Shown here: piece after piece, positions 2,627 to 53,485 of the stretch
How positions within the stretch are numbered: position 1 is the first letter of the stretch
Layout: every line of letters begins with the position of its first letter
Notes under the pieces: generated by a model
What the model was told of the DNA's origin: nothing
Seen by the model: only the letters and a program-made list of their open reading frames with translations
Database searches by the model: none
NCBI GenBank assembly: GCA_024679065.1
Contig: JAGIQG010000003.1
Coordinates: 38,812,001-38,876,000, forward strand
DNA length: 64,000 nucleotides
From: Sphyrna mokarran
Lineage: Eukaryota
Direction: 5' to 3'
Position numbers and translations under genes: made by a program

Positions 2627-2758
2627 GGGCAGCATGGTAGCACAGTATTTAGCACTGCTGCCTCACAGTACCAGGGAGCAGGATTCAATTCGGTGACTGT
2701 GTGGCGTTTGCACATTTTCCCTGTGTCTGCATAGATTTTCCCTAGGAGATCTGGTTTC
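2627..2758 (+). mobile_element. HE1/V-type tRNA-derived SINE, 5' part
   Basis: GGGCAGCATGGTAGCACAG...GCACTGCTGCCTCACAG head and start of the V-like body. Confidence 0.8.
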
Positions 2759-2950
2759 AAGTTTATTTATTAGTGTCACAAGTTAGTTTACATTAACATA
2801 GCAATGAAGTTACTGTGAAAACCTCCTAACTGCCATATTCCAGAGCCTGTTCGGGTACACTGAGGGAGAATTTAGCATGGCCAATGCATCTAACCAGTAC
2901 ATGTTGCGGACTGTGGGAGGAAACCGGAGTGCCTGGAGGAAACCCACAAA
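2759..2950 (-). mobile_element. V-type SINE 3' part with alternative tail
   Basis: Reverse complement of the V body plus a ...cacagtaacttcattg...cttgtgacactaataaataaac tail. Confidence 0.75.
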
Positions 2951-4883: not shown

Positions 4884-5663
4884 TAAGAACATAAGAAAGA
4901 GATGTAGGAGTAGGCCATTTAGCCCTTCGAGCCTGCCCCGCCATTCAATAAGATCATACTGATCGGAAGTGGTTCAGTTCCACTTTCCTGCTTTCTCCCC
5001 ATAACCCTTAATTCCCTGTCTATCAGAAATCTATCTACCCGTGACTTAAACATATTCAACAAGGTAGCCTCCATCACTTCAATGGGCAGAGAATTCCAGA
5101 GATTCACCATCCTTTGAGTGAAGAAGTTCCTCCTCAACTGTGTTCTAAACTGCCCCCTCCCCCCTTATTTTGAGGCTGTGCCCTCTAGTTTTGATTTCCT
5201 TTCCAAGTGGAAAGATTCTCTCTACCTCTACCCCTTTTTAGCTCCTTCGTTATCTTGTAAGTCTTTATAAGATCCCCCCATCAGCCTTCTAAACTCGAAC
5301 AAGTACAGGCCCAGTGTATTTAATGTCTCCTCATAAGCTAACCCCCTCATCTCCGGTATCAGCCTGGTGAACCTTTTCTGTACTTCCTCCAAGGCCAATA
5401 TATCCTTACGCAAATAAGGGGACCAAAACTGCAGACAGTACTCCAGCTGCTGCCTCACCAGTGCTCTGTACAATTGCAGTAAGATTTCCCTGCTTTTATA
5501 TTTTATCCCCCTCACTATAAAGGCCAACATTCCATTCTCCTTCTTGATCACCTGCTGCACCTGCAGACTGAGTTTTTGCGATTCGTGCACAAGAACCCCC
5601 TGGTCCCTCTGCACAGTGACATGCTGCAACTTTTCACCATTTAAATAATATTCCTTCCTATTT
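4884..5663 (-). mobile_element. CR1 LINE 3' fragment (host of the younger CR1; resumes at 7063-7122)
   Basis: ORFs 5228-5629 and 4919-5137 encode the CR1 ORF2 C-terminus (LEYCLQFWSPY, FFTQRMVNLWNSLP). (TTCTTATG)n tail at 4884. Confidence 0.92.
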
Positions 5664-5689
5664 TATTGTAGGAAGAGGGAGTAAGTGGA

Positions 5690-6529
5690 GTGATCAGCAA
5701 GTTTGCAGACGATACAAAGATGGCTGGACTTGCGGATAGTGAGGAGCATTGTCAGGCGATGCAGCAGGACATAGACAGGCTGGTAGCTTGGGCAGACAGA
5801 TGGCAGATTGAATTCAATCCTGATAAATGTGAGGTGATGCATTTCGGGAGAAAAAATGTAGGGGGGAGGTATATGATAAAGGGTAGACGTATTAAGAGTA
5901 TAGAAACGCAGAGGGATCTGGGAGTGCAGGTGAACAAGTCTCTGAAGGTGGCAGAGCAAGTGGAGAAGGTTGTGAAGAAAGCATATAGCATGCTAGCCTT
6001 TATAAGAAGGGGTATAGAGTACAAGAGCTGGCCTTTAATGTTGCAGTTGTACAAAACGCTGGTTAGACCTCATTTGGAATACTGCATCCAGTTCTGGTTG
6101 CCTTACTACCAGAAGGACGTGGAGACTCTGGAAAGAGTGCAGAGGAGGTTTACCAGGATGCTGCCCGGTATGGAAGGTCTGAGTTACGAGGAGAGATTAG
6201 GCGAATTGGGACTGTTTTCCTTAGAAAGACATAGACTTAGAGGAGATCTGATAGAGGTGTACAAGATTATGAAGGGGATAGATAGAGTAAACAGGGTTAA
6301 GCTTTTTCCTAGGATGGACTCAAATAGCACGAGGGGTCACGGGCTTAGGGTGAGGGGGGTAAGGTATAATTTGGATGCGAGAGGGAGTTTTTTCACACAG
6401 AGGGTGGTGGGGGTATGGAATGCGCTGCCAAGTAAAGTGGTGGAGGCAGGTACTCTGGAGTTATTTAAGAAATACTTAGATGGGCACATGAACAAAATGG
6501 GAATGGAGGGGTATAGAAAACTGATTTAA
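5690..6529 (+). CDS. CR1 ORF2 C-terminal part (RT FADD motif onward), 5'-truncated
   Basis: 279-aa open frame: [48 protein letters not shown]. Lacks the RT N-terminus and endonuclease. Confidence 0.9.
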   Translation: MISKFADDTKMAGLADSEEHCQAMQQDIDRLVAWADRWQIEFNPDKCEVMHFGRKNVGGRYMIKGRRIKSIETQRDLGVQVNKSLKVAEQVEKVVKKAYSMLAFIRRGIEYKSWPLMLQLYKTLVRPHLEYCIQFWLPYYQKDVETLERVQRRFTRMLPGMEGLSYEERLGELGLFSLERHRLRGDLIEVYKIMKGIDRVNRVKLFPRMDSNSTRGHGLRVRGVRYNLDARGSFFTQRVVGVWNALPSKVVEAGTLELFKKYLDGHMNKMGMEGYRKLI

Positions 6530-6616
6530 AATAGGGATCATGAGCCTTGGCAGTCCCTGGGAAGTGTGTAAATAGATGATGATATTGATGTACTTGTTTT
6601 TATCCTACAGGTGCTT

Positions 6617-6737
6617 TGGTCCACCTTGTTGTCTAACGAGGGGCATACACGCGATGGGTCGTGAGAGGGCTGCTCTTGGATTTTTTTCGAGAGTATCCTA
6701 CTGCTTCACATCGTTAGTGTACGCTTGACCTGGACCA
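6617..6737 (+). other. Predicted multi-stem RNA structure in CR1 3' UTR
   Basis: Hand-paired helices 6617-6623/6731-6737, 6624-6630/6635-6641, 6642-6656/6709-6725 and 6666-6680/6686-6699, with several G-U pairs. Confidence 0.6.
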
Positions 6738-7117
6738 TTTGATGGGCAACACGACAGCTCAGTGACTATCGCTGTGCTGTGCAGATACATGGATTTGGGC
6801 CTGTGTCTGTGGGAGTTTGCGCATTCTCCCCGTGCTTGCGTGGGTTTTCTCCGGGAGCTCCGGTTTCCTCCCACATCCCAAAGATGTGCTCTTAGGCTAA
6901 TTGGCAAAACAAATTCTCCCTAAATTGTCTCAAATTTGGTTTTTAATCCATAGACCTATAAACATGGACAGGGATCGCGTGTAGAAGTGGGAACATTGAG
7001 GTGGCGGCGCGGGCTCGTTGGGCCAAAGGGCCTGTTTCCCATGCTGTTTTTTGTTCTTTGTTCTATTTCTTCCAAAATGGATAATCTCACATTTGCTAAT
7101 GTTACACTCCATCTGCC

Positions 7118-7279
7118 ATCTTTGGATTTTGGGAAAAAACCAGAGCACCCAGAGGAAACCCACGCATACACAGGGAGAATATGCAAACTCCACATAGACA
7201 ATCACCCAAAGCTGGAATCAAACCCAGATCCCTGGCACTGTGAGGCAGCAGTACGAACTACTGTGCCCCCATGTCACCC
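7118..7279 (-). mobile_element. HE1/V-type SINE (head and body)
   Basis: Reverse complement of head and V body, joined to the CR1 at shared catctttg. Confidence 0.85.
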
Positions 7280-9500: not shown

Positions 9501-9720
9501 GTAAGAAGTCTCACAACATCAGATTAAAGTCCAACCAGTTTGTTTGATAGTAATCCCACAAGCTTTTGGAAACAGTGTTCCTTCGCACATCTGATGAAGG
9601 AACACTGTTTCTGAAAGCTTTGTGGGATTACTATCAAATAAACCGGTTGGACTTTAACCGGGTATTGTGAGACTTCTTATTATGTTTACCCCAGTCCAAT
9701 GCCGGCATCTCTACCTCATG
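9501..9720. mobile_element. Inverted pair of Penelope-derived terminal repeats (family A)
   Basis: 9501-9584 is the imperfect reverse complement of ~9596-9680. Confidence 0.8.
9586..9624 (+). ncRNA. Putative minimal hammerhead ribozyme (core intact)
   Basis: CACA..CTGATGA(9591-9597)-AGGAAC/GTTTCT helix II-GAAA(9613-9616)-gc-TT-TGTG. Confidence 0.55.
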
Positions 9721-10520
9721 TGTACATCTCATACAGTCACAGCACACAGACAATTAAACATCACCGAATTGGCAAACACAGCCTTTAAAAAAACATGTTG
9801 TGGTCAAATGAGAAGTAGGGAAAGAGAAGAGCCATTCGACCCTTCCACACCTGAATTAACAGGATAATTCCAACAGATTGGGGTGAGTTAATTTCAACTA
9901 AATTGTCATCTTTGAGACCTATTCTAGCACACACAAATCAGCATGTCACAACTAAGCACACCACTTAACCAGCAGTAGTGCCATTGTTTGCCACTTGTTA
10001 TATGCATCAAGTACTCACTTATTCATTACAATCCCCATATAACAGTACATTTTTGCAATACACACCCAGGAAGAAGGCAACAATTCTGCACAAAAGGCTG
10101 GAAACAGCATGATCTTGGCAAGCCTGTTTCCACTGCCAAGTACAGAAATGCTTATTCAGCTTTATGCATATTCTTTTGCCTTTGACTTTAAAGAGAGACC
10201 ATTAAACTTTACATTCTGATGACGATTTCAACTTCATTTTCCTCAAAGAGATCAATCAAGAAAATGAGATTTTTTTTAAAAGTAAAACCAAGTCATATAC
10301 AAGATCTGCAAGATTTAACATTTGAATTAAGACACTGTTATCACTGTTCTTTCAAACATGTGCCTCAAAAGTGCCAACAGTTTTAACTTCAGAGGTCAAA
10401 ATTCAACTAAATTACCAGTTAAACACATGAACAAGAAGACATTGAAAATGAACATGCATCCAAGTATCACACTTGATAATATGGATGTAACTGTCTCCAA
10501 AAGTGGATTTTATTTGAAAA

Positions 10521-10833
10521 ACAGCACAGTGGTTATACTGCTGCCTCACAGCACCAATGAGCCAAGTTTGATTCCTGATTTGGGCCACTGTCAGTGCAGA
10601 GTCTGCTCATTCTTCCCATATCTGTATGGGTTTTCTCTGGGGCTCCGGTCTCCTCCCACAGTCCAAAGATGTGTGGGTTAGGTGGATGGATTGGCCATAC
10701 TAAAATTGCCCCTTAGTGTGAGGGAGACTAGATAAGGTAAATGCATGGGATTATAGAGATGGGGCCTTGGTGGGATTGTGGTCAGTGCAGACTCAATGGG
10801 CTGACTGGCCTTATTCTGCACTATCGGATTCTA
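10521..10833 (+). mobile_element. HE1/V-type SINE with CR1-type tail
   Basis: gcacagtggtta..ctgctgcctcacagc head, V body, ...gcagactcaatgggc...ttctgcact..ggattcta tail. Confidence 0.85.
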
Positions 10834-11104: not shown

Positions 11105-11400
11105 TAAAATTTATTTATTATTGTCACAAGTAGGCTCACATTAGCATTGCAATGAAGTTGAAGTTACTGTGAAAATCCCTGAGTCACCACCTGTAATGAT
11201 ATACTGAGGGAGTATTTAACATGGCCAATGCACCTAACCAGCACAATTGTTGGACTGTGGGAGGAAATCAGAGCACCCAGAGGAAAGCCATGCAAACATG
11301 AGTAGAACATGCAGATTTCACACAGTCAGTGACCCAAGTGGGAACCAAACCCAGGTCCCTGGTGTTGTGAGGCAGCACTGCTAATCACTGCACCACCCAC
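11105..11400 (-). mobile_element. V-type SINE with alternative tail
   Basis: Head at ~11400, V body, tail ...cacagtaacttc...cctacttgtgacaataataaat. Confidence 0.8.
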
Positions 11401-13368: not shown

Positions 13369-13675
13369 GAAATCATAGAATCCCCACAGTTACAGAAGGA
13401 GGCCATATGGCCCATCAAGTTGTACTGACCACAATTCCACTCAGGCCCCATTCCCACACATTTGCCCTACTAATCCCCCAAATACTCAGGGCAATTTAGC
13501 ATCGCCAATCAACCTAACCCGCACATCTTTCAACTGTGGGAGGAAACTGGAGTGCCCAAAGGAAACCCACACAGACACGGGTAAAACATACAAATTCTTC
13601 ACAGACAATGACCCAAACTGGGGATTGAATTTAGGTCCACATCGCTGTGAGGCAGCAATGCTAACCATTATGACA
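13369..13675 (-). mobile_element. HE1/V-type SINE with CR1-type tail
   Basis: Full head, body and tail on the minus strand. Confidence 0.85.
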
Positions 13676-15229
13676 CTCCCAAATCTAAGGATCGCAAATT
13701 ATAAAACACTTTTGCGTCATAGACAAGGAGCAAATAAAGACTTAGCTTTCAATGAGAAAAGCCATCATGTTTCCAACAAATGCTTATTTCAAATCGTATA
13801 AAGAGCTAACTTTTGGCATATTGCCAGATGGACTTTCATGGATTTAGTGATCCAGAGGGAATTTAAATTGAAACCAATAGCTTGCATGGTCATTTTTCTG
13901 GCAATACCCTACAAATGGCCAGATTTATTGAAATTTGCCATTACTTTTGCGTTCAGTCTTTGGATTGCGCATCCAATTATCTACCAAACCCATCTCAAGT
14001 CCTTATTCAGAGAGGTGATTGTTTGATTAGGCTGAAAGATACTCACCAGATCTCCAGAGATCTTCTAAGCTGTTCAGAAGAAAATGGGCACACAGAAGCT
14101 GAAGAGTGTATAATTGGCAAAAGAAGAACATGTGAATGTTGGCCTCCACCAGAAGCTGAAAGAATTAGATGGACACAGTACAGCATTTCTACTCCCCAAG
14201 GTCCTCACAGTGATGTTAAGCTTCAGTGGAACAAGGCAATTCAAACAGGGATCCAGTGCCAGAAGAAATGACAAACCCCCACAGAAGCAGAGTTAGATTT
14301 AAAATGCTAGATATGATATGCAGAGAAATGGAAGCATTTATGAGGAGAGCTCAATAGATTTCATCAGAGGAAAGAAACATGGAGCACAGGAGTGATTAAA
14401 AAAGGAACACCCAAGAGAAGTGAAATATAAAAGAGAGAACATTCAAACGCAGCACCAATGAAGAGGATCCAAGAGAAGTATAACATAAAAAGGAAGCACT
14501 TGGCAGCAGTATATGTAAAAAGAGCATCTTGAGTAAAGTAAATTTATAGCTTAACATTCTATGCCCAAGACGACCACTCCAGTTAATATTGAGTAATTTA
14601 CAGAGAACCCTTTCAGTGCAAGGAGCCATACGGTGTGTGTGTGTAAATCAATGGCACAAGTCAAATTCTGTCACATACTCCATGAGCAACCTTTCTGTGA
14701 GGAATGCGTATTTATTTCAGTGTAGCTATAGGGTCAAGTACTATCTCTCTCAGTTTCAACTGTCCCTTGCAGACCAAAGCACAGTTGCAAACATAGACAA
14801 GAGAGTAGAAGAAAATATTTAAGGATACCCCGGCTGCCGGGCAACAAATGCTGAATACAGGACAGCACCACACAGCATGTCAAATCTACCTGATTATCTA
14901 AGATAGTGATCATGTTGATTTCTCTGTATCCTTCACATCAGGAGATTACTGCAGTAATCAGCAACAATTTACGTAAAATTCCAATGTTTACTGCACCTTC
15001 AGACACCATTTCATGCTTAAAAAACTTTCTGGGATACACAGAATTTCAGGTTATGTAGCATTGCTCAATTATTTAAGAGAAAATCAGGCAAGGCATCCAG
15101 ATAGTTCAAATGGATCATTCACTTTGGAGAAAATAACTTTGGGCATTCTTTATAACTTTCAATCTACATCTTACCCTTTCATAGGTAACATACTAACAGC
15201 ATGTCAGCTTCATCAACAAATTAATAACA

Positions 15230-17784: not shown

Positions 17785-18742
17785 TAGAGTCATAGAGGTT
17801 TACAGCATAGAAACAGGCCCTTCAGCAAGGAACTTGTCCATGTTGCCCTTTTTTTTTAAACCCCTAAGCTAGTGTCAATTGCCCAGCTTACTCATGTAGT
17901 GTCCAAACGCTTTTAAAAAGATAAAATTGTACCTGCCTCTACTACTACCTCTAGCAGCTTGTTCCAGACACTCACTACCTTCTGTGTGAAAAAATTGCCC
18001 CTCTGGACACTTTTGTATTTCTCCTCTCTCACCTTAAATTTATGCCCTCTAGTTTTAGACTTCCTACCTTTGGGACTGGCTGATCTATGCCCCTCATTAT
18101 TTTATAGAACTCTAAAAGGTCACCCCTCAACTTCCTACGCTCCAGGGGAAAAAAATCCCAGTCTATCAAGTCTCTCCTTATAACTCAAACCATCAAGTCC
18201 CGTTAGCATTCAAGTAAATCTTTTCTGCACTCTCTCTAGCTTAATAATATCCTTTCTATATTAGGGTGACCAGAACTGCACACAGCATTTCAACTGTGGC
18301 TTACCAATATCTTGCACAACTTCAACAAGATGTCCCAACTTTTGTATTCAACATTCTGACCAATAAAACCAAGCATGCTGAATGCCTTTTTCATCACTCT
18401 GGCCACCTGTGACTCCAATTTCAAGGAGTTATGAACCTGTACCACTAGATCTCTTTGTTCTGTAACTCTCCCCAATGCCCTACTATTAATTGACTAAGTC
18501 CTGCCCTAGTTCATTCTATCAAAATGCATCACCTTGCATTTATCTAAATTAAACTCCAACTGCCACTCATCAGCTCACTGGAACAATTGATCAAGATGCC
18601 ATTGCAATTGGAGATAACCTTCTTCACTGTGCACTATGTCACCAATCTTGGCGTGGTCTGCAAACTTACTAACCATGCCTACTATATTCTCATCCAAATT
18701 ATTAATATAAATGACAAACAACAGTGGACCCAGCACCAATTG
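17785..18742 (-). mobile_element. CR1 LINE 3' fragment
   Basis: VLGPLLFVIYINNLDENIVGMVSKFADHAKIG (ORF 18575-18910) and CR1 C-terminal ORF 18290-18475. Tail at 17785. Confidence 0.9.
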
Positions 18743-19099
18743 TCTCAAACTTAGACACAATTGGCCATCTTTTGATATTTCCCCACAACATACAGCAACC
18801 ATTTTAGCAATTTCAAAGATCGAAGGTGAAAAACCCTCTCTGGTGTAGTGAAACTTCTCATGCACACAAATGACAGTTGTAATCTTACAAACTGGGTCTA
18901 TGCAGTGCATTTCAAGGACTGTGGTTCCATAGGGGCAACGTGCAAAATATAATTGTATGACACATCACACATACTTCAGTCAATTTGAACCTACTGAGCA
19001 AAAAAAGGACAAGCTACAGAAAGAAGGCAGAGCTGTGGACCAGAACTTGGAGTAGGTATATCAACAACTTATTTTATATAGTCTTAAATGTAAACAAAA

Positions 19100-34778: not shown

Positions 34779-35300
34779 ACAAAGAACAAAGAAAATTATA
34801 GTACAGTAACAGGCCCTTCAGCCCTCCAAGCCTGCACCAACCACACTGCCTGTATGAACCAAAAACTTCTATCCTTCCAGAGACTATATCCCTCTATTCC
34901 CATTCAATTCATGTGTTTGTTCAGGCACTCCTCAAAAGTCACTATCGTATCTGCTTCCACTTACTCTCTTGGCAGCGAGTTCCAAGCACACACCATTCCC
35001 TGTGTGAAAAACTTGCCTCGTACATCTCCTTTAAAACTTACCCTTCTTTGACTCTTCTACCCTGGGAAGAAGCTTCTCACTATCCATTCTGTCCATGCCC
35101 TTCATAATCTTGCAGGCTTCTATCAGTCTCCCTCAACCTTTGTCATTCCAGTGAGGATAAACCAGGTTTCTCCAACTTCTCCTCATAGCTAATGTCGTCC
35201 ATACCAAGCTACATTCTGGTAAATCTTTTTTATACCCTTTCCAAATTCTCCACATCCTTCTGGTAGTGTGATGGCCAGAATTGAACATATATTCAACTGC
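34779..35300 (-). mobile_element. CR1 LINE 3' fragment
   Basis: CR1 C-terminal sequence (cacatccttctggtagtgtgatggccagaattg) and a (TTCTTTG)n tail. Confidence 0.85.
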
Positions 35301-41073: not shown

Positions 41074-43157
41074 TAGACGGGGTAGAAATTGTAAAATGTG
41101 TTCAGGAGAATTTTCTAAATCCGTATATAGAGTGCCAACTAGAGAGGATGCGATATTGGATCTCCTATTAAGAAATGAGTTAGGGCAGGTGATGGATGTG
41201 AGTGTGAGGGAACACTTTGGATCCAGTGATTATAATGCCATTAGTTTCAATTTGATCATGGATAAGGGCAGATCTGGTGCTCGGGTTGAAGTTCTGAACC
41301 GGAAAAAGGCCAAAAATTTGATGAAATGAGAAGGGATCTGGGAAGTGTGGATTTGCACAGGCTGTTGTCTGCTAAGGATGTAAATGGATAGTAGGAGGCC
41401 TTCATAGGAGAAATTTTGAGAGTGCAGAGTTTGTATGTTCCTGTCAGAATTAAAGGTCAAGTAATTGGAAATAAGGAACCGTGGTTTCAAGGGAGATTGT
41501 AACACTGATTAAGAGGCAGCAGGGAACAGATCAGATTCTCGAGCAGTATAAAAAAATGCAAGAAGCTACTTAAGAGGGAAATCAGGAAGGCTAAAAAAAG
41601 ACATGAGGTTGCTTTGGCAGACAGAGTGAAGGAAAATCCAAAGAGCTTCTATAGGTATGTAAGGAGGAAAAAGATAGTGAGGGATAAAATTGGTCCTCTT
41701 GAAGACCAGAATGGTAGACTGTGTATGGAGCCAAAAGAGATGAGGGAAATACTAAATGGGTTTTTAAATGTTTAAAAAAGGTTCCAAAATAAATCTGGGA
41801 AATTATAGGCCAGTAAGTTTGACATCAGTGGTGGGCAACTTATTGGATGGTGTGATAAGGAATAGGACCTACAAATATTTCGATAGACAGGGATTTATTA
41901 GGGGGAGCCAACATGGCTTTGTGCGTGGTAGGTCTTGTTTGACCAATCTATTAGAGTTTTTCGAGGAGGTTACCAGGAAAGTGGATGAGGAGAAGGCGAT
42001 GGATGTTGTCTACCTGGATTTCAGCAAGGCCTTTTATAAGGTCCCTCATGGGAGGTTAGTTAGGAAGGTTCAGTCACTAAGTATACATGGGGAGGTAGTA
42101 AATTGGATTAGACACTGGCTCAATGGAAGAAGCCAGAGAGTGGTTGTGGAGGATTGCTTCTCTGAGTGGAGGCTAGTGGTGTACCGCAGGGATCGGTGTT
42201 GGCTCCATTGTTATTTGTCATCAGTATCAACGATCTGGATAATGTGGTAAATTGGATCAGCAAATTTGCTGATGATACAAAGATTGGAGGTGTAGTGGAC
42301 AGTGAGGAAGGTTTTCAAAGCTTGCAGAGAGATTTGGACCAACTAGAAAAATGGGCTGAAAAATGACAAATGGAATTTAACACAGACAAGTGTGAGGTAT
42401 TGCACTTTGGAATGACAAACCAAAGTAGAACATACAGGGTAAAGGGTAGGACTCTGAAGAATGCAGTTGAACAGAGAGATCTGGAAATACAGATACAGAA
42501 TTCCGTAAAAGTGACACCACAGGTGGATAGGGTCGTAAAGAGTGCTTTTGATACATTTGCCTTTATAAATCGGAGTATCGAGTATAAAAGTTGGAGTGTT
42601 ATGGTAAGGTTGTTTAAGGCATTGGTGAGGCCGAATTTAGAGTATTGTGTACAGTTTTGGTCACCTATTTACAGGAAGAATGTAAATAAGGTTGAAAGAA
42701 TGCAGAGAAGATTCACAAGGATGTTGCCGAGACTTGAGAAGCTAAGTTACAGAAAGAGATTGACTAGGTTAGGACTTTATTCCCTGGAGTGTAGAAAAAT
42801 GAGGGGAGATTTGATAGAGGTACATAAGATTTTGATGGATATAGATAGAACGAATGCAAGCAGCCTTTTTCCATGAGGCTAGAGGAGAAAAAAAACCAGA
42901 GGGCATGGATTAAAGGTGAAAGAAAAAAGATTTAAAGGGAATATTAGGGGGGCTTCTTCACGCAGAAAGTGGTGGGAAGGTAGAATGAGCTGCTGGATAA
43001 AGTGGTAAATGCGGGGTCACTTTTAACATTTATGGAAAACTTGGACGGGTTCATGGGTGAGAGGGATGTGGAGGGATATGGTCCAAGTTCAGGTCAACGG
43101 GCCAAGGCAAAAAATGGTTCGGCACAGACAAGAAGGGCCTGTAGTTTTCTATGGTTC
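41074..43157 (+). mobile_element. CR1 LINE: endonuclease C-terminus, RT and 3' end, with internal deletion near 41765
   Basis: PTREDAILDLLL...HFGSSD (APE endonuclease); [39 protein letters not shown] (RT). Stops and frameshifts present. Confidence 0.93.
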
Positions 43158-52911: not shown

Positions 52912-53485
52912 TTCATAGAGTCATAGAGATTTACAATATGAGAACAGGCCTTTCAGCCCAACTTGTCCATGCTGCCCTTTTTTTTTAAAAATCCCTATGT
53001 TAGTCCCAATTACCCCAATTTGGCCCTTATCCTTCTGTACCCATCTTACCCATTTAACTGTGTAAATGCTTTTTAAAAGACAAAATTGTACCCACCTCTG
53101 GCAGCTTGTTTCAGACACTCACCATCCTCTGTGTGAAAAAACTGCCCCTCCGGACATTTTTGTATCTCTCCCCTTTCACCTTAAACCTAATTTTAGACTC
53201 CCTTACCTTTGGGAAAAGATATTGACTATTTAGCTGATCTGTGTCCCTCATTATTTTATAGGGGTGATCTTATAGAAGCCTCAGACTGCTATGCTCCAGA
53301 GAAAAAAGTCCCAGTCTATCCAGCCTCTCCTTATAACTCAATCCATCAAGTCCCAGTACCATCCTTGTAAATCTTTTCTGCACTCTTTCTAGTTTAATAA
53401 TATCCTTTTACAATAGGGTGGCCAGAGCTGCACACAATATTCCAAATGTGGCCTTACCAATGTATTGTACAACTTCAACAAGACA
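52912..53485 (-). mobile_element. CR1 3' fragment (same subfamily as 17785-18742) within older CR1 pieces
   Basis: Near-colinear with 17785-18335. Older CR1 pieces at 52845-52900 and 53490-53950. Confidence 0.85.

What the first reader, a model, noticed from the sequence alone, without database searches (positions are those of the whole stretch)
6617..6737. Compact multi-helix RNA fold in the CR1 3' UTR
Seen: P1 TGGTCCA/TGGACCA (6617-6623/6731-6737) closes a junction containing the hairpin CCTTGTT-gtct-AACGAGG and a long arm (6642-6656/6709-6725). That arm is capped by a 14-bp hairpin (6666-6680/6686-6699) with a U5 loop. Several pairs are G-U, which work only on the sense strand. Unpaired GGTC (6657-6660) is complementary to junction GACC (6727-6730), so a pseudoknot is possible. 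A further hairpin follows (~6755-6780). No hammerhead core is present. Inference: an unrecognised cis-acting RNA, such as an RT/RNP binding site, stability element or ribozyme.
Basis: partly seen in the sequence, partly recalled or inferred. Interest (0 to 1): 0.75.

Follow-up and report, generated by a model that had tools for sequence, protein, structure and literature searches.

The report
Conserved RNA fold in CR1 retrotransposon
A jumping gene with tens of thousands of copies in this genome carries, in its untranslated tail, a predicted 120-base RNA fold with no match in Rfam that its subfamilies have kept, next to a captured copy of a short parasitic element, and the two together likely act as a protein-docking unit that helps the gene copy itself.

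Summary
The fold is real as a prediction: z = -4.72 on the + strand, against -2.35 on the - strand. It lies in the 3' UTR of a high-copy CR1-type LINE (one 20-mer has 21,326 exact copies). I found seven subfamilies. All predict the same three-way junction. The fold differs by 9-18% between them, where synonymous ORF2 sites differ by 36-44%, and the changes mostly keep the pairing; strict two-sided covariation is thin (4 pairs). It is the first part of a larger conserved cassette: a splice-acceptor-like motif, the junction, a captured tRNA-derived SINE with a damaged promoter, and that SINE's central (V-type) domain, which differs by only 3-8%. Other CR1 families here have short UTRs without it. 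No Rfam, hammerhead or HDV-like match. Copies' 5' ends do not pile up at the fold or at the acceptor, which argues against self-cleavage or frequent splicing. Best reading: a selected cis-acting protein-docking domain that helps retrotransposition (about 0.45). Function is untested; RNA reads gave no test.

The parts
5671..7064 (+). 5'-truncated CR1-type LINE copy (subfamily A here), ending in a short tandem tail
   Evidence: Full-span alignments to family copies at 90-96% identity end at 7064 and stop at 5671; the label CR1 is recalled from ORF2 motifs and tail, no reference library was on hand
5672..6529 (+). C-terminal 285 codons of ORF2, open
   Evidence: no Pfam hit by itself, but a subfamily-B copy (L176) has an 819-aa open stretch with endonuclease and RT domains
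6530..6582 (+). Variable spacer, shortened or replaced between subfamilies
   Evidence: 40-47% substitutions and 59-147 gap columns between subfamilies
6583..6611 (+). 3' splice-site-like motif: branch-like 7-mer, pyrimidine tract, CAG|G
   Evidence: CAG|G in 7 of 7 subfamilies, 11-13 pyrimidines in the 15 bases before it; use not shown
6617..6737 (+). Three-way-junction RNA module: P1, 7-bp hairpin P2, long arm P3 with 14-bp cap, 5-base single-stranded junction
6744..6805 (+). Relic of a tRNA-derived SINE head; internal promoter boxes altered, 18 bases over the second box deleted in all but the oldest subfamily; predicted to be refolded into a second multi-helix domain
   Evidence: Alignment to the majority of 15 free SINE loci; alignment and folds
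6806..6890 (+). Central conserved SINE domain (V-type; name recalled), two predicted hairpins
   Evidence: Matches free SINE copies in the window; 2-6 substitutions in 79 columns between subfamilies; folds
6891..7002 (+). Variable region after the SINE domain
   Evidence: 30-46% substitutions and 56-103 gap columns
7003..7064 (+). Ordinary CR1-type 3' tail hairpin and tandem repeat
   Evidence: Shared in kind with the short-UTR CR1 families; 1-4 substitutions in 46 columns

Best explanation
The stretch is a predicted three-way-junction RNA in the 3' UTR of one CR1 LINE lineage, kept together with a captured SINE domain, and it likely serves as a docking site for proteins that raise the chance that this RNA, rather than a competing SINE RNA, is reverse-transcribed. 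Shown: the place in the element, the seven subfamilies, the captured SINE, the low divergence and the pair-keeping changes. Inferred: one ancestral CR1 gained about 450 bases of extra UTR ending in a SINE of its own partner family, which supplied a usable tail; the SINE promoter decayed, deletions trimmed the spacer and the region after the SINE domain, and selection on the copying lineages kept the acceptor-like motif, the junction, the refolded SINE head and the V-type domain as one folded unit. Untested: which protein binds (host RNA-binding or export factor, or ORF2p) and at which step (stability, export or RNP assembly).
For: Divergence between subfamily majorities: module 11/119, 14/120, 22/119 and 12/120 against four-fold ORF2 sites 11/25, 10/25, 14/33 and 9/25; V-type domain 2-6/79; flanks on both sides 30-47% with large deletions. 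Refolding null (same substitution types at random places): p = 0.003-0.007 for E1 to A, C, D, B1 and for A to B1; four ORF2 control stretches p = 0.17-0.76; head plus V domain p = 0.007 and 0.033. 20 changes in 92 paired columns against 14 in 28 unpaired. In 18 real copies 94.4% of 825 cells pair, against 36-44% when slid; 4 pairs change on both sides. Sense strand folds better in 7 of 7. Cassette-bearing ORF2s form one clade, 10 of 11 rows, support 100/99; the eleventh is a nested insertion. The lineage is autonomous and abundant: 21,326, 6,062 and 30,306 exact motif copies. No pile-up of 5' ends at the fold, which fits a binding element rather than a cutting one.
Against: No binding, expression or probing data: two raw RNA runs gave 0 reads, which is no test. 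Two-sided covariation is not above shuffles by pair count (77 of 500), only by score (2 of 500), and kinship alone can give that. With the fixed structure, E1 to C and E1 to D are not significant (p = 0.079, 0.16), and B1 to A is borderline on refolding (0.056). Six of 46 pairs are broken in at least one subfamily and one is lost to a gap. The middle of the long arm takes another register in RNAalifold on real copies. Other abundant CR1 families in the genome do without the cassette, so it is not needed for CR1 copying in general. Some old copies carry a young module between old flanks, so sequence exchange between subfamilies occurs. The seven subfamilies are about three independent lineages of one genome.
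Confidence: 0.45

Rival explanations
1. The cassette is a terminal exon: the branch-point/pyrimidine/CAG motif is a working 3' splice site, and the fold just behind it controls its use or is what a spliced RNA delivers (an ORF2-less LINE RNA, or host transcripts ending in the LINE tail); splicing factors bound there could also aid 3' end formation or export.
For: CAG|G is invariant in 7 of 7 subfamilies and 11-13 of the 15 preceding bases are pyrimidines although the tract itself has changed; spacer deletions in B1 and D stop about 21 bases before the AG; the three bases after CAG|G vary freely.
Against: Spliced retrocopies are at most rare: 39 hits with a foreign 5' side at 6611 against 19 at a control site; of 30 of the 39 inspected, 1 joins the LINE's own ORF2 at a GT and microhomology explains it as well; 1 hit in subfamily B1; 21 hits with CAG kept, none joined to an ORF2 donor. 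These patterns see only part of all possible donors. T-rich DNA stays pyrimidine-rich by transitions alone.
Confidence: 0.2
2. The fold is a neutral passenger; its low divergence comes from sequence exchange (gene conversion or template switching) confined to the similar cassette, and its stability from chance and G-U tolerance.
For: Old E-type copies with a young A-type module (115-118 of 120 identical) between old flanks exist: 5 clear cases among 21 loci. Most pair-keeping changes are one-sided transitions.
Against: Such chimeras are rare: none among 177 other copies classified. Module variants follow the ORF2 subfamilies. The captured domain keeps its own diagnostic differences from the free SINE. 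The refolding null keeps the substitution types and is still rejected. Deletions hit both flanks and spared the cassette.
Confidence: 0.13
3. The cassette controls translation of ORF2 or protects the long 3' UTR from decay (a 3' translation-enhancer-like or decay-blocking fold).
For: It begins 28-170 bases after the ORF2 stop; sense-strand, multi-domain fold. A loop-to-arm contact (P2 loop with 6657-6660) pairs in 88.9% of cells.
Against: Distance to the stop is not kept; no conserved reading frame follows; the loop contact has no two-sided change and is weak in subfamily A; a 5'-3' decay block would favour copies starting at P1, which is not seen.
Confidence: 0.14
4. The fold is a self-cleaving ribozyme of an undescribed class.
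For: Compact three-way junction with conserved single-stranded junction bases; ribozymes are known in other non-LTR elements (PMC8501958, search listing and start of abstract only).
Against: No Rfam hit; no hammerhead core, pistol-like motif or HDV-like descriptor hit in 7 of 7 (descriptor written from recall, no positive control). 5' ends of 88 copies are dispersed: 2 in 6600-6617, 7 in 6618-6737, 0 in 6738-6744. A cut here would part ORF2 from the tail needed for priming (established TPRT model).
Confidence: 0.06

Closest known systems
3' tail stem-loop of stringent LINEs (UnaL2, ZfL2, SART1; CR1 tails shared with SINEs)
   Same: Structured cis element in a LINE 3' UTR acting at RNA level (PMC5135761, passages read).
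   Different: Those are small hairpins at the very 3' end; this element keeps such a hairpin at 7003-7046 and has in addition a 120-base junction about 270 bases upstream.
HE1 V-SINE / HER1 LINE pair of sharks and rays
   Same: tRNA-derived head, central domain and CR1-type tail; the pair is listed in PMC3747384 (table passage). Identity of the free SINE here with HE1 is recalled, not tested against a reference.
   Different: Here the SINE sits inside the autonomous LINE, with its promoter damaged; the usual flow is LINE tail into SINE.
MER6 (Mariner-derived MITE carrying a headless V-SINE)
   Same: A V domain carried by another mobile element after loss of SINE promoter function (PMC6887750, passages read).
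   Different: MER6 moves as DNA and the domain may be a passenger; here the carrier moves as RNA and the domain is more conserved than synonymous sites.
R2 3' UTR structure
   Same: Long, folded 3' UTR read by the element's protein (about 250 bases needed; PMC5135761 passage).
   Different: Other clade; no Rfam match; not shown to bind RT here.
HDV-like, hammerhead and twister ribozymes of non-LTR elements
   Same: Compact multi-helix RNA in a retrotransposon.
   Different: Those lie at the 5' end (recalled) and have catalytic cores that are missing here.

Membership tests
CR1-type LINE | ORF2 with AP endonuclease and RT domains | tested here: met
   L176: Exo_endo_phos_2 E 3.5e-9 and RVT_1 E 1.4e-28 in an 819-aa open stretch; same clade as the window's ORF2
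CR1-type LINE | Short tandem-repeat tail after a 3' hairpin, frequent 5' truncation | tested here: met
CR1-type LINE | Placement in the CR1 clade against named reference RTs | not tested
V-SINE (HE1) relic | tRNA-derived head followed by a conserved central domain shared with free SINE copies | tested here: met
   Alignment to the majority of 15 free SINE loci; hits in the window
V-SINE (HE1) relic | Match to the published V-domain consensus | not testable with these tools
   Original paper not held; name recalled
Independent SINE starting at the fold or at the head | Copies with a common 5' end at the head | tested here: not met
   1 of 88 ends in 6745-6830, 0 in 6738-6744; no family with the fold before an intact head among 15 of 45 hits inspected
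Hammerhead ribozyme | CUGANGA and GAAA core | tested here: not met
   0 of 7 subfamilies; Rfam none
HDV-like ribozyme | Nested double pseudoknot P1-P1.1-P2-P3-P4 with catalytic C in J4/2 | tested here: not met
   0 descriptor hits in 7 of 7 (recalled descriptor, no positive control); Rfam none
Twister, pistol, hatchet and other Rfam families | Match to the covariance model | tested here: not met
   No gathering-level hit in the window; best E-values 2.8 and 9.8 in 6500-7100
Self-cleaving RNA of any class | Site-specific cleavage in vitro | not testable with these tools
   Indirect only: no 5'-end pile-up
3' splice site | Branch point, pyrimidine tract, YAG|G | tested here: met
   Motif in 7 of 7 for tract and CAG|G; branch-like 7-mer clear in E1, E2, A0, A, weaker in the rest
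3' splice site | Junction reads or spliced copies | tested here: inconclusive
   No RNA reads; spliced retrocopies not enriched

The most novel reading that the evidence does not exclude
An autonomous LINE captured its own SINE parasite and turned it, with an undescribed three-way-junction RNA and a splice-acceptor motif, into a selected 300-base RNA machine that wins back the reverse transcriptase; this would show that the V domain, conserved across vertebrate SINEs for unknown reasons, works for the element at RNA level and independently of a Pol III promoter.
Probability: 0.3. Interest if true: 0.8.

Novelty: new variant of a known kind. Interest (0 to 1): 0.58.

Why it matters
Structured cis elements in LINE 3' UTRs are known, but mostly as one small terminal hairpin. 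Here a large fold with no Rfam family is under apparent selection in a lineage with tens of thousands of copies. Why SINE central domains are so conserved is an open question (three models are listed in PMC5499810, passage read; 'role still unclear' in PMC11481361). A LINE that carries such a domain in its own UTR makes the question testable in one construct: delete the domain or the junction and measure retrotransposition. Low divergence in the copying lineages also points to benefit for the element rather than for the host.

Tried and rejected
DNA search of the own genome with 6560-6800 returned nothing because common words are skipped; patterns were used. Rfam: nothing. An alternative P2-loop contact: 89% paired, no two-sided change, left open. 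A coding exon after CAG|G: subfamily A has a stop and D a one-base deletion (read from the alignments). K-turn, loop E, SECIS, export-element and microRNA readings were considered by eye from recalled motifs and dropped because the needed bases are missing or not conserved; not tested by a tool beyond Rfam. An older family with the fold before an intact SINE head: 45 hits, 15 inspected, none. No genome-wide search with the RNA model R1 was made, so remote homologues in other contexts are not excluded. Earlier findings of the scan: nothing. Literature searches that found no description of this cassette: (open-licence PMC and bioRxiv only); Repbase and Dfam were not available, where a consensus of this family may well be on file; no supplements were opened.

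Full report
Observation. The helices are as described. The + strand folds at -50.6 kcal/mol, z = -4.72, 0 of 200 shuffles; the - strand at -34.2, z = -2.35. Pair probabilities are high except at the end of P1 and the middle of the arm. Rfam has nothing in the window at gathering level and nothing better than E = 2.8 in 6500-7100.

Context. The fold lies 88 bases after the stop of a 285-codon ORF2 end, in a 5'-truncated LINE copy spanning 5671-7064. The genome is 2.77 Gb; the repeat content suggests a cartilaginous fish (inference from recalled SINE types). A 20-mer from the fold has 21,326 exact copies, control 0. DNA contigs of two further coded organisms hold the stretch. Raw RNA runs gave no reads, so expression is untested.

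Subfamilies. Patterns aimed at variants gave 6,062, 489 and 420 further exact hits. A tree of 115 copies was cut by eye into seven groups, 97 copies in all, the rest left out: A (window type), A0, B1, C, D, E1, E2. E copies are the most decayed (7-8% from their majority, against 2.3% for A). E1 has the longest UTR. A subfamily-B copy has an 819-aa open stretch with endonuclease and RT domains. Other CR1 families in the loci have short UTRs and no cassette. In a tree of 19 ORF2 ends, thinned from 43 hits (26 with cassette, 14 short, 3 unassigned and dropped), 10 of 11 cassette rows form one clade at 100/99; the other row is a short-UTR element followed by a nested truncated copy. One gain is the simplest reading; the tree is midpoint-rooted.

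The cassette. Behind the fold, 6744-6890 aligns with the head and central domain of the free tRNA-derived SINE of this genome (majority of 15 loci). E1 keeps nearly the whole head with altered promoter boxes; the others lost 18 bases over the second box. Head and central domain are predicted to form two more domains. Before the fold, all seven keep a pyrimidine tract and CAG|G. That the free SINE is HE1 and the domain is V is recalled; PMC3747384 lists HE1/HER1 as the V-SINE/LINE pair of sharks and rays (table passage).

Selection. Between subfamily majorities the module differs at 9-18% of sites, the head relic at 7-19%, the V-type domain at 3-8% and the tail at 2-9%, against 36-44% at four-fold ORF2 sites (25-33 sites only) and 30-47% in the two flanks, which also lost long stretches; flank values rest on gap-rich alignments and C's spacer may not be homologous. 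All seven fold alike. Changes fall at 20 of 92 paired and 14 of 28 unpaired columns; 16 of 46 pairs vary, 8 of them staying paired throughout, 1 gaining a pair, 6 breaking in some subfamily and 1 meeting a gap. Placing the same substitution types at random and refolding gives p = 0.003-0.007 in five of six directions and 0.056 in the sixth; four ORF2 controls give 0.17-0.76. With the fixed structure two of seven tests are not significant. In 18 real copies (the window and 17 picked as little decayed among 38 scored), 94.4% of cells pair, 4 pairs change on both sides, score 0.116 (2 of 500 shuffles), pair count 77 of 500; the structure came from the same families, so these lean in its favour. 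RNAalifold on those copies recovers P1, P2, the lower arm and the cap but shifts the middle of the arm.

Pseudoknot. The proposed one forms only in A and A0. A contact of the P2 loop with the same four bases pairs in 88.9% of cells without two-sided change; four-base matches arise easily, so this stays a lead.

Cutting or splicing. A ribozyme or a used acceptor should leave copies that start at one place. Copies with a foreign 5' side number 39 at 6611 and 19 at a control site, 1 in B1 and 21 with CAG kept, against about 20,000 motif copies; each pattern sees only about a quarter to a third of possible 5' sides. Of 30 inspected, at least 9 are the LINE itself with a small indel and 1 joins ORF2 at a GT. 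Of 90 copies anchored further 3', 88 were placed (duplicates not removed): ends are dispersed, about 7-14% per 100 bases through 6430-6737, none at 6738-6744. No hammerhead, pistol-like or HDV-like core was found in 7 of 7.

Exchange between subfamilies. Five of the 21 loci are old E-type copies with a young A-type module between old flanks. None was seen among 177 other copies classified (these were ascertained by module patterns). Conversion therefore occurs but seems too rare to explain the conservation, and it would not explain pair-keeping changes.

Mechanism. Shown: position, history of capture and trimming, low divergence, pair-keeping change. Inferred: the folded cassette benefits the copying lineage. 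I commit to a protein-docking role that aids stability, export or RNP assembly and so favours this RNA over free SINEs with the same kind of tail (0.45). Rivals: working splice acceptor (0.2), translation or decay control (0.14), neutral with conversion (0.13), ribozyme (0.06).

Literature. Passages only were read of PMC3747384, PMC6887750, PMC5786205, PMC11481361, PMC5499810, PMC5135761 and bioRxiv 10.64898/2026.01.13.699120; PMC8501958 was seen as a listing. PMC6887750 describes a V domain carried by a DNA transposon; PMC5786205 describes LINE parts in SINE bodies, the opposite direction, and mentions one possible LINE-SINE recombination in a 5' UTR. Eight searches found no account of this cassette; the two original HE1 and V-SINE papers, Repbase, Dfam and all supplements were not seen.

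Verdict. Interest 0.58.

Noticed in passing
L279, L281, L282, L283, L289 (module near locus position 1510): Old E-type copies whose module (and in some the SINE domain) is young A-type between old flanks: likely gene conversion confined to the conserved cassette.
   Followed up: partly
window 9541-9650: Inverted repeat with a hammerhead-like core (CTGATGA at 9591-9597, GAAA at 9613-9616), resembling Penelope-like element ends (recalled); related repeats near 20-130 and 1700-1810. No Rfam hit at gathering level.
   Followed up: no
window 6624-6641; E1 copies such as L062, L076: In the oldest subfamily hairpin P2 is a perfect 18-base palindrome with a self-complementary loop, which could allow RNA dimers; the loop is changed in all younger subfamilies.
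   Followed up: no
window 6631-6634 and 6727-6730: GACC stands in the P2 loop in E2, B1, C and D and in the junction in A and A0, so a partner for 6657-6660 exists in most subfamilies but at different places.
   Followed up: partly
window 6701 and 6710: The window copy differs from most family copies at these two places; both lie in the long arm.
   Followed up: partly
L142: One copy joins ORF2 at a GT directly to the base after the CAG; either a spliced retrocopy or a microhomology deletion.
   Followed up: partly
window 2628-2760, 7117-7270, 10520-10830, 11224-11400, 13504-13680: Free copies of the tRNA-derived SINE whose central domain matches the captured one.
   Followed up: partly
window 4890-5640, 17830-18750, 34880-35270, 41768-43080, 53030-53480: Other CR1 families with short 3' UTRs and no cassette.
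   Followed up: partly
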